Below, piece by piece: positions 20,847 through 22,023 of a DNA stretch of 64,000 nt. Under the pieces are notes generated by a model. The model saw only the letters and a list, made by a program, of their open reading frames with translations, was not told the DNA's origin and ran no database searches. Origin of the DNA: Escherichia coli (GTDB lineage Bacteria > Pseudomonadota > Gammaproteobacteria > Enterobacterales > Enterobacteriaceae). The stretch's first letter is position 1; each line of letters starts with the position of its first letter. Where the stretch lies: NCBI RefSeq assembly GCF_965641715.1, contig NZ_OZ282455.1. One strand, 5' to 3'. The position numbers and the translations under genes are program-made.

Positions 20847-20874
20847 CGCCTGCGCCTGCGCCTGCGCCTGCCTG
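20847..20874. repeat. hexanucleotide tandem repeat (TGCGCC/CGCCTG, ~4 units) in 5' leader of downstream gene
   Basis: TCGCC TGCGCC TGCGCC TGCGCC TGCCTG, ending 16 nt before the ATG at 20890. Confidence 0.7.
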
Positions 20875-20889
20875 ATAAAGGAACCCTGC

Positions 20890-22023
20890 ATGCATTTTTA
20901 TGTGGATGAAACCGGTCATACCGGTCCCAATCTTTTTGACCGTACCCAGCCTGTGCTTTCCTACGGTGTGCTTTCCTCACCGGATGACCTGGACAAGGTT
21001 GCCGAAGCCGATCTTGCTGCCTTGCGTAAGAAACTGGGAGTGCAGCGCCTGCACGCCGCAGAGCTTGGCATGCACCGCCTTGATGAGGTGGTTGATACGC
21101 TGCTTGTCCTGCAAAAGAAGCACCGGATACGGTTTGATGTCTGGCAGGTCGTTAAACGGGATCACGCCATTATTTCGTTCTTCGATCAGGTGTTCGATCA
21201 GGGGATGAATCCTGCAGTGCCCAGGGTTGCCTACTGGACCCCCTTTCGTTACCCGCTGCTACTGAATCTGGCAAGCCTGTTCGATAATGAGCTGGCTGAA
21301 AAAGCGTGGCGTGCCCGCCTCGAAGCCCATGATGGAAGGTCCTCATCTCTGTTCAGTGAGGTCTGCAGTGAGCTGCTTGCGCGCGCTCATACCCTGGGGG
21401 ACCGCCGTTACATTGAATTGATTACCGATGCGTTGTCCTGGGCGATGACCCACTTTGACGAACTGGGATATAACTGCAAAACCGGTAAACAAAAGCTGCA
21501 GATCATGCCCAATATGGTTGGATTTCAGTTCGTATTGCGCGGTATCTGTTCCCGCCTGGGAGCACCAAATCGCAAAGCCGACATCGTTGTGGACCAGCAG
21601 TCACAGTTCAACACCACCCAGCGGGAGCTGAGGGAGTTCTATTACCAGATACGTGAGATGCCGTGGGCACACGGTCCCGGTTTACCGGTCATGGATGTGA
21701 CGAACATGCCGGCTGAACCGCTGGTCTTCCAGTCGGGTACAAAAAGTGCAGGGCTGGAGCTGGTTGATATATATCTCTGGATCTTCAAACGCTTTATGGA
21801 AGGGAAGGAGTTAACCAGACCCCTTACCCGCCTGGTTTACACCAATCGCAATACCGGCAGGACGGACAGTGTCTCCCTTCAGTCGGTGGCTAAACGATCT
21901 AAGGAGTTTCTTGACAAACTGCAGGAGCCAACGGCAGAAATGATGAAAAAGGCGAGGGAATACCGGGATCAGGAAGAGGTAAGGCGGCTGGAACATCGGG
22001 TGCAAATCCTGCCGCCATCCTGA
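20890..22023 (+). CDS. DUF3800-like protein
   Basis: N-terminus MHFYVDETGHTG matches the Y(I/V)DE(S/T)G signature of DUF3800; RBS AAGGA upstream; six-frame ORF extends artificially to 20782. Confidence 0.45.
   Translation: MHFYVDETGHTGPNLFDRTQPVLSYGVLSSPDDLDKVAEADLAALRKKLGVQRLHAAELGMHRLDEVVDTLLVLQKKHRIRFDVWQVVKRDHAIISFFDQVFDQGMNPAVPRVAYWTPFRYPLLLNLASLFDNELAEKAWRARLEAHDGRSSSLFSEVCSELLARAHTLGDRRYIELITDALSWAMTHFDELGYNCKTGKQKLQIMPNMVGFQFVLRGICSRLGAPNRKADIVVDQQSQFNTTQRELREFYYQIREMPWAHGPGLPVMDVTNMPAEPLVFQSGTKSAGLELVDIYLWIFKRFMEGKELTRPLTRLVYTNRNTGRTDSVSLQSVAKRSKEFLDKLQEPTAEMMKKAREYRDQEEVRRLEHRVQILPPS

What the first reader, a model, noticed from the sequence alone, without database searches (positions are those of the whole stretch)
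20847..22023. Hexanucleotide tandem repeat in the leader of a DUF3800-like gene: possible phase-variable expression
About four units of TGCGCC/CGCCTG lie at 20847-20874, ending 16 nt before the ATG at 20890, followed by RBS AAGGA. The downstream protein begins MHFYVDETGHTG, the DUF3800 signature. Short tandem repeats in promoters or leaders can change copy number by slipped-strand mispairing and switch expression.
Basis: partly seen in the sequence, partly recalled or inferred. Interest (0 to 1): 0.5.

Follow-up and report, generated by a model that had tools for sequence, protein, structure and literature searches.

The report
Short repeat before a plasmid nuclease gene
A real six-base repeat sits just upstream of a plasmid gene for an RNase H-like protein and has grown from two to three to four copies in one plasmid lineage, but it behaves like an ordinary, slowly changing length polymorphism and not like a rapid on/off expression switch.

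Summary
(CGCCTG)x4.2 lies at 20847-20871, perfect, and is the only such repeat in the 64 kb (0 in 200 simulations). It sits between a conserved promoter-like element (TTGCAC-N18-TACAGT, 20798-20827) and the Shine-Dalgarno sequence AAGGA, upstream of the ATG at 20890. The gene (20890-22023) is a DUF3800 protein. It has an RNase H-like fold, an invariant N-terminal D6-E7 motif, and dN/dS of 0.1-0.2.

Copy number does vary:
- 2 units in 20 loci read directly, including all 6 metagenome hits. More distant relatives have a degenerate tract of the same length.
- 3 units in 11 near-identical IncI-gamma plasmid records.
- 4 units only in the window.

The alleles follow the SNP tree as one series, 2->3->4, with no repeated independent changes. 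The 3-unit allele is unchanged in plasmids from different hosts and countries. About 6 SNP events per 4.1 kb accompany one repeat change. That implies roughly 1e-7 per generation, far below phase-variation rates.

The tract is not in the promoter spacer. The leader is unstructured, and predicted ribosome-site accessibility is flat from 1 to 8 units.

Verdict: this is a young slippage microsatellite in a 5' leader, probably neutral or weakly tuning. Phase variation is not supported. Interest is low.

The parts
20847..20874 (+). Hexanucleotide microsatellite: (CGCCTG)x4 plus a partial unit CCTG. TRF calls 20847-20871 as 4.2 copies.
   Evidence: Allelic series of 2, 3 and 4 units in relatives.
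20798..20827 (+). Putative sigma-70 promoter TTGCAC (20798-20803), 18-nt spacer, TACAGT (20822-20827). The inferred transcription start is near 20833-20836, which places the repeat in the 5' leader.
   Evidence: Both hexamers and their spacing are conserved in all enterobacterial relatives, even at dS near 1 (alignment A2). The consensus scanner did not call it, because it matches only 3/6 and 4/6. There are no transcription-start data, so this is inferred.
20878..20882 (+). Shine-Dalgarno sequence AAGGA, 7 nt before the ATG.
   Evidence: AAAGGA is conserved in all relatives.
20890..22023 (+). DUF3800 gene, 377 aa: an RNase H-like fold protein with an invariant D6-E7 motif. It occurs as a stand-alone gene module.

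Best explanation
The tract is a young microsatellite created by replication slippage in the pyrimidine-rich 5' leader of a plasmid-borne DUF3800 (RNase H-like) gene.

In distant relatives the same position holds a non-repetitive tract of the same length (CGTTTCGCTTCCTCCAGCCTG). In closer relatives it became CGCTTGCGCCTG, then a perfect two-unit CGCCTGCGCCTG. In one IncI-gamma/K1 plasmid lineage it then gained one unit (3 units, now widespread) and, in this window, one more (4 units).

Each step is a rare event that became fixed in a clade. It adds 6 nt to an unstructured, transcribed but untranslated leader, upstream of the Shine-Dalgarno sequence. The most likely consequence for expression is none or a small quantitative change.

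It is not a high-frequency reversible switch.

Shown: the repeat, the allelic series, its agreement with the SNP tree, the gene's identity and fold. Inferred: the promoter and transcription start, the slippage mechanism, the rate estimate, the lack of effect on expression.
For: - Repeat real and non-random.
- Whole-unit alleles with identical flanks: 20 loci with 2 units, 11 distinct records with 3 units, the window alone with 4. Spans of 269 nt against 281 nt in further plasmid and chromosomal records imply 2 units. All 6 metagenome matches have 2 units.
- Agreement with the tree: L064 is identical to the window over 4.1 kb apart from one unit. The 3-unit clade differs from the window by 0-3 SNPs. 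L062 (2 units) is the sister lineage, with 6 SNPs in 3.8 kb. The 95%- and 94%-identical clades have 2 units.
- Stability: the plasmids carrying 3 units have backbones 1-2% diverged from one another and come from different hosts and countries, yet share the tract.
- Origin: the leader has the same length and a degenerate tract in relatives out to dS near 1.
- No mechanism for a switch: leader folding z-scores run from -0.66 to +0.40. Pairing probability of the Shine-Dalgarno sequence is 0.46-0.50 and opening energy is about 6-8 kcal/mol for 1-8 units. The tract lies downstream of the conserved -10 element.
- For comparison, 6-bp tandem-repeat loci in E. coli O157 mutate at 4e-5 to 1e-3 per generation, mostly in long alleles (PMC3777172).
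Against: - No sequencing reads, transcription-start map or expression data were available, so within-culture heterogeneity and any effect on expression are untested.
- Three different alleles in a clade separated by only a handful of SNPs make this the most mutable site of the locus, about 700 times the per-site substitution rate.
- Permissive screens for phase-variable loci accept hexanucleotide repeats of 3 or more units (PMC2651432).
- Leader length is otherwise invariant across deep divergence, so a 6-12 nt increase may not be strictly neutral.
- The exact-protein look-ups collapsed 41 'similar places' in the 3/4-unit clade, whose unit numbers I could not read.
Confidence: 0.8

Rival explanations
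1. Phase variation or a rheostat: slipped-strand mispairing changes unit number at high frequency and reversibly. Each length gives a different DUF3800 expression level, producing mixed populations.
For: The tract varies by whole units among near-identical plasmids. It lies between the promoter and the ribosome-binding site. A repeat in a 5' leader can act as a rheostat, as for hmw1A in Haemophilus influenzae (PMC12721329). Four hexamer units pass permissive screening thresholds.
Against: - Unit number is clade-fixed and never recurs independently.
- 11 of 11 records in the 3-unit clade and 20 of 20 in the 2-unit clades are uniform.
- The estimated rate is near 1e-7 per generation.
- The hmw1A mechanism needs 11 or more units and a long hairpin with a complementary arm. 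Here there are 2-4 units and no structure.
- Phase variation requires switching in both directions at rates detectable without selection (PMC11868660).
Confidence: 0.06
2. One-off adaptive tuning: the expansions are rare but were selected because a longer leader changes (probably lowers) the dose of a costly nuclease-like protein in the IncI-gamma plasmid or its hosts. They would be a fixed regulatory mutation, not a switch.
For: Leader length is otherwise invariant over deep divergence. The 3-unit allele is widespread: the exact protein is listed in 929 + 361 collection blocks. The gene is repeatedly inactivated elsewhere: 5'-truncated in many F-type plasmids, 3'-truncated in enterotoxigenic E. 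coli plasmids, and frameshifted in L009. This suggests its expression can be costly.
Against: No predicted change in ribosome-site accessibility. Abundance of the 3-unit allele can equally reflect hitch-hiking with a successful plasmid module. No expression data.
Confidence: 0.11
3. The fourth unit is an assembly or sequencing error in the window's source record, and the true allele is 3 units.
For: The 4-unit allele is a singleton among 32 alleles read. L064 is otherwise identical over 4.1 kb.
Against: A 24-nt tract is far shorter than any read length. Typical errors affect homopolymers, not exact 6-nt units. The 2- and 3-unit alleles, seen in independent assemblies, show that the tract really does change by whole units.
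Confidence: 0.02
4. The repeat is coding: translation starts at GTG 20782, giving a 413-aa protein with an (Ala-Cys)n N-terminal extension whose length varies in frame.
For: The ORF listing shows an open frame from 20782 that reads ...RFACACACACLIKEPCMHFYVDETG.
Against: All 28 aligned homologues start at M-x-F-Y-V-D-E, with the catalytic D6-E7 motif at the extreme N-terminus. The Shine-Dalgarno sequence precedes ATG 20890. NCBI's pipeline and the other gene callers use this ATG. The conserved promoter-like hexamers lie inside the supposed extension.
Confidence: 0.01

Closest known systems
Ordinary bacterial microsatellite / variable-number tandem-repeat polymorphism (for example the 6-bp typing loci of E. 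coli O157:H7, PMC3777172)
   Same: Perfect tandem hexanucleotide units. Alleles differ by whole units with identical flanks. Slippage is the accepted mechanism. Short alleles are comparatively stable.
   Different: Very short (2-4 units) and much less variable than typing loci. It is located in a 5' leader on a conjugative plasmid module.
hmw1A/hmw2A heptanucleotide repeat in the 5' untranslated region of Haemophilus influenzae (PMC12721329, PMC8262952)
   Same: A tandem repeat between promoter and start codon, transcribed as part of the leader. Unit number could in principle grade expression.
   Different: hmw has 11 or more units, a long repeat/G-rich hairpin processed by RNase III, and measurable population heterogeneity. 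Here there are 2-4 units, no complementary arm, no significant structure, and alleles are fixed within clades.
Promoter-spacer repeat switches (for example the TA repeats between -35 and -10 of hifA/hifB in H. influenzae, mentioned in PMC2651432)
   Same: An intergenic short repeat close to a promoter.
   Different: The tract here lies downstream of the conserved -10 element, so unit number does not change -35/-10 spacing.
DUF3800 (PF12686) proteins: retron type VII effectors (PMC7736814), Cas12a2-associated TPR-DUF3800 (PMC10910872), and genes flanked by the DUF3800-I to -XI RNA motifs (PMC5737381)
   Same: The same domain, the N-terminal DE motif and an RNase H-like fold.
   Different: Stand-alone 377-aa gene with no reverse transcriptase, no Cas12 and no Rfam DUF3800 RNA motif nearby. 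No conserved neighbour. No match to any PADLOC defence model.

Membership tests
Repeat-mediated phase-variable (contingency) locus | A tandem repeat tract longer than expected by chance | tested here: met
   4.2 perfect units. It is the only such repeat in 64 kb, and none appeared in 200 simulations. It passes the threshold of 3 or more units used for hexamers in PMC2651432.
Repeat-mediated phase-variable (contingency) locus | The tract is placed so that a length change alters expression: a frame shift, promoter spacing, or a regulatory leader element | tested here: inconclusive
   Not in the coding sequence. Downstream of the conserved -10 element, so not in the spacer. It lies in the inferred leader, but in-silico accessibility of the ribosome site is flat for 1-8 units. 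No experiment was possible.
Repeat-mediated phase-variable (contingency) locus | High switching rate, detectable without selection (PMC11868660) | tested here: not met
   Comparative proxy only. There is one unit change against about 6 SNP events per 4.1 kb in the 3/4-unit clade. The 11 three-unit and 20 two-unit loci are uniform within clades. This implies about 1e-7 per generation, assuming the E. coli base-substitution rate of about 2e-10 (my own knowledge).
Repeat-mediated phase-variable (contingency) locus | Reversibility: expansions and contractions recurring on the tree | tested here: not met
   The allele distribution fits a single 2->3->4 series along one lineage, and no independent recurrence is needed.
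Repeat-mediated phase-variable (contingency) locus | Mixed tract lengths within one culture or sample | not testable with these tools
   No reads are available.
Neutral or near-neutral microsatellite (tandem-repeat length polymorphism) | Alleles differ by whole units, with conserved flanks, among close relatives | tested here: met
   L064 equals the window over 4.1 kb apart from one unit.
hmw1A-type 5'-leader repeat rheostat | The repeat forms one arm of a long, stable leader hairpin, with 11 or more units | tested here: not met
   2-4 units. Leader minimum free energy is no better than shuffled sequence (z -0.66 to +0.40). There is no complementary arm.
DUF3800 (PF12686) | Match to the family profile | tested here: met
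   E=8.8e-7, model positions 1-148 of 149. The score is modest.
DUF3800 (PF12686) | N-terminal DE motif and RNase H-like fold | tested here: met
DUF3800 (PF12686) | C-terminal QxxD motif (as described in PMC7736814) | tested here: inconclusive
   D293 is invariant within G-L-E-L-V-D, but the Q position is E (or Q in a few sequences). The retron type VII proteins also lack the Q.
DUF3800-associated structured RNAs (Rfam DUF3800-I to -XI) | A covariance-model match near the gene | tested here: not met
   No match at E<=10 in 20300-22400. The whole window gives only sok and AgrB.

The most novel reading that the evidence does not exclude
The leader repeat is a plasmid-borne expression rheostat in Enterobacteriaceae. 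Unit number (2, 3, 4 and beyond) would set the dose of a stand-alone RNase H-like DUF3800 protein. Slippage would let the conjugative plasmid re-tune that dose as it moves between hosts. That would be a repeat-based contingency mechanism in a group of bacteria, and on a type of replicon, where such mechanisms are considered rare.
Probability: 0.06. Interest if true: 0.55.

Novelty: new member of a known kind. Interest (0 to 1): 0.15.

Why it matters
As it stands it matters little. It is a clean example of a microsatellite being born and growing stepwise (degenerate tract, then 2, 3 and 4 units) in a plasmid leader. It could serve as a fine-scale marker to subtype a very common IncI-gamma/F-plasmid accessory module (DUF3800 + Abi_C + DUF2971).

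If the repeat did tune expression, it would be an unusual case of repeat-based regulation on an enterobacterial conjugative plasmid. It would also give a handle on the still unknown function of stand-alone DUF3800 proteins, whose relatives serve as retron and CRISPR-associated components.

Tried and rejected
1. Promoter-spacer switch: rejected. The conserved TTGCAC-N18-TACAGT lies wholly upstream of the tract, and no -10/-35 pair brackets it.
2. Leader RNA structure or anti-Shine-Dalgarno pairing modulated by unit number: GUUUC upstream of the tract can pair with GGAAC of the ribosome site in some minimum-energy structures. Ensemble calculations show no trend with unit number and no significant structure.
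3. Known DUF3800-associated RNA motifs or any Rfam family in the intergenic regions: none.
4. Defence-system assignment of the DUF3800 protein: no PADLOC or NCBIfam hit. PHROGs gives only an unknown-function family. Only the neighbour matches AbiJ weakly.
5. Sequence search against solved structures: nothing significant.
6. Conserved partner gene across 32 genome loci: none. The only recurring 'clusters' are antisense ORFs inside the gene.
7. Viral contig scan for the locus: 0 hits.
8. Coding (Ala-Cys)n extension from GTG 20782: rejected.
9. A wider allele census through exact-protein look-ups: limited, because the tool collapses places with the same neighbours. 41 places in the 3/4-unit clade stayed unread.

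Full report
**Observation**

The sequence at 20840-20892 reads ATCGTTT CGCCTG CGCCTG CGCCTG CGCCTG CCTG ATAAAGGAACCCTGC ATG. Tandem Repeats Finder reports 20847-20871, period 6, 4.2 copies, 100% matches. A scan for perfect short repeats found this as the only one in the 64 kb, and none occurred in 200 first-order Markov simulations.

**The gene**

The gene at 20890-22023 encodes 377 aa.
- It matches Pfam DUF3800 end to end (E=8.8e-7).
- An alignment of 28 homologues from Enterobacterales, Alteromonas, Marinobacter, Burkholderiales, Pasteurellaceae and Legionella all start M-x-F-Y-V-D-E. D6, E7, D91, D235 and D293 are invariant.
- dN/dS against relatives is 0.11-0.21, so it is a functional gene.
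- It has no conserved neighbour across 32 genome loci.
- It matches no PADLOC or NCBIfam model and has no close solved relative by sequence.
- None of the DUF3800-associated RNA motifs of Weinberg et al. (PMC5737381) is nearby.

**Context**

The window is an IncI-gamma/K1 conjugative plasmid. The best relative is NZ_CP122641.1, with a backbone about 98.5% identical.

The gene sits in an accessory block between the replicon-proximal ProQ/FinO-family gene and the stability region. On one side is a divergent 229-aa gene of unknown function. On the other are a convergent Abi_C/AbiJ-like gene and a DUF2971 gene.

The module is very common. The exact protein is listed in 929 blocks of the assembly collection, its A260V variant in 361, and a 4-residue variant in 1,173.

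**Where the repeat lies relative to signals**

Alignment of the upstream region from 15 relatives shows three conserved blocks (the L016 row was given on the wrong strand and is ignored):
- an imperfect inverted repeat;
- CTTGCAC, then 18 nt, then TTTTACA(G/T)T;
- CGTTTC, then the tract, then CCTGATAAAGGA.

Recombination breakpoints of the module fall at 20767-20785. The promoter must therefore lie between there and the ATG. I take TTGCAC (20798-20803)-N18-TACAGT (20822-20827) as the promoter. This is inferred: the consensus scanner did not call it. On that reading the tract lies in the 5' leader and not in the -35/-10 spacer.

**Copy number in relatives**

| Units | Where found |
|---|---|
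| 4 | the window only |
| 3 | 11 distinct records: IncI-gamma plasmids of E. coli and Salmonella from Belgium, Germany, Kansas and Colorado, plus further assemblies |
| 2 | 20 loci read directly, including all six metagenome hits |
| 2 (inferred) | further plasmids and E. coli chromosomes, from a span of 269 nt against 281 nt |

Slightly more distant relatives have CGCTTGCGCCTG. Still more distant ones (dS up to about 1) have a non-repetitive pyrimidine-rich tract of exactly the 2-unit length. The repeat is therefore young.

**Pattern on the tree**
- L064 equals the window over 4.1 kb apart from one unit.
- The other 3-unit records differ from the window by 1-3 SNPs.
- L062, with the identical protein, has 2 units and differs by 6 SNPs in 3.8 kb.
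- The clades that are 95% and 94% identical have 2 units.

This is a single series 2->3->4 with no independent recurrences.

The plasmids that share the 3-unit allele have backbones 1-2% diverged from one another. The allele has therefore been stable through extensive spread.

Within the 3/4-unit clade I count about 6 SNP events per 4.1 kb against one repeat event. The tract thus changes about 700 times faster than a single base. With the E. coli base-substitution rate of about 2e-10 per generation (my own knowledge), this gives about 1e-7 per generation. That is an order-of-magnitude inference that assumes neutrality.

Phase variation is defined by switching in both directions at rates detectable without selection (PMC11868660). 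E. coli O157 6-bp tandem-repeat loci mutate at 4e-5 to 1e-3 per generation, mainly in long alleles (PMC3777172).

**Effect on expression (in silico only)**
- Leaders with 1-5 units fold no better than shuffled sequences (z -0.66 to +0.40).
- Over 1-8 units the Shine-Dalgarno pairing probability stays at 0.46-0.50. The energy to open the ribosome site stays at about 6-8 kcal/mol, with no trend.
- The best-understood leader-repeat rheostat, hmw1A, needs 11 or more units and a long RNase III-processed hairpin (PMC12721329). Neither is present here.

**Conclusion**

The tract is a real slippage-generated microsatellite in the leader of a DUF3800 gene. It is caught at an early stage of expansion, and alleles are fixed within clades.

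The phase-variation reading is not supported. It is not strictly excluded without reads and reporters, and I give it about 6%. A one-off adaptive tuning of expression gets about 11%, and an assembly error for the fourth unit about 2%.

The finding is ordinary. Its main uses are as a subtyping marker and as a tidy example of microsatellite birth.

Noticed in passing
window 20771-20797 (and L006, L008, L009, L020, L021 at the same alignment columns of A2): An inverted repeat AGATCCG...CGGATCT abuts the -35 element of the DUF3800 promoter. In several relatives both arms are perfect and each contains a GATC Dam methylation site. In the window the right arm is degenerate (AGGTTCT). It may be an operator or a methylation-sensitive site.
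   Followed up: partly
window 21039-22023, and relatives L025 and L022-L024: Many F-type plasmids (for example plasmids of O157:H7 and O55:H7 strains) carry this DUF3800 gene truncated at the 5' end, starting at the equivalent of 21039. Enterotoxigenic E. coli plasmids keep only the first ~100 nt next to insertion sequences. The E. albertii copy (L009) is frameshifted. Intact copies are nevertheless under purifying selection (dN/dS 0.1-0.2).
   Followed up: partly
window 20890-22023, residue 112: The window lineage has Arg at position 112, where more than 90% of the 28 aligned homologues have Trp. It also has Phe119, where most have Leu. Arg112 is shared with the 2-unit Citrobacter/E. coli chromosomal clade, so it is not linked to the repeat expansion.
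   Followed up: partly
window 25022-25103: An AT-rich tandem array (9-nt units ACAATACAT, also scored as 18- and 27-nt periods, about 7 copies) lies just upstream of the KfrA-like DNA-binding gene at 24360-24971 (-). It may be a binding-site array or a centromere-like site.
   Followed up: no
window 46102-46134: A perfect 12-nt tandem repeat ATGGAAGGACGC x2.8 (also scored with a 24-nt period from 46082).
   Followed up: no
window 56633-56790 (+) and 57415-57502 (-): Rfam matches above the gathering score: sok antitoxin RNA of a hok/sok system (134 bits) and AgrB antisense RNA (55 bits).
   Followed up: no
window 22182-23782 (-): The convergent neighbours are an Abi_C / weakly AbiJ-like protein (PADLOC E=5.5e-8) and a DUF2971 protein. 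They travel with the DUF3800 gene in many plasmids and in some E. coli chromosomes, but are absent next to DUF3800 in other relatives (L003, L007, L072-L076). This is a candidate defence islet with no assigned system.
   Followed up: partly
window 18141-25150 compared with L013, L058, L059: A ~7-kb segment containing the DUF3800 block is 99.9% identical among IncI-gamma plasmids whose remaining backbones differ by 1-2%. This points to recent exchange of the accessory module between plasmids.
   Followed up: partly
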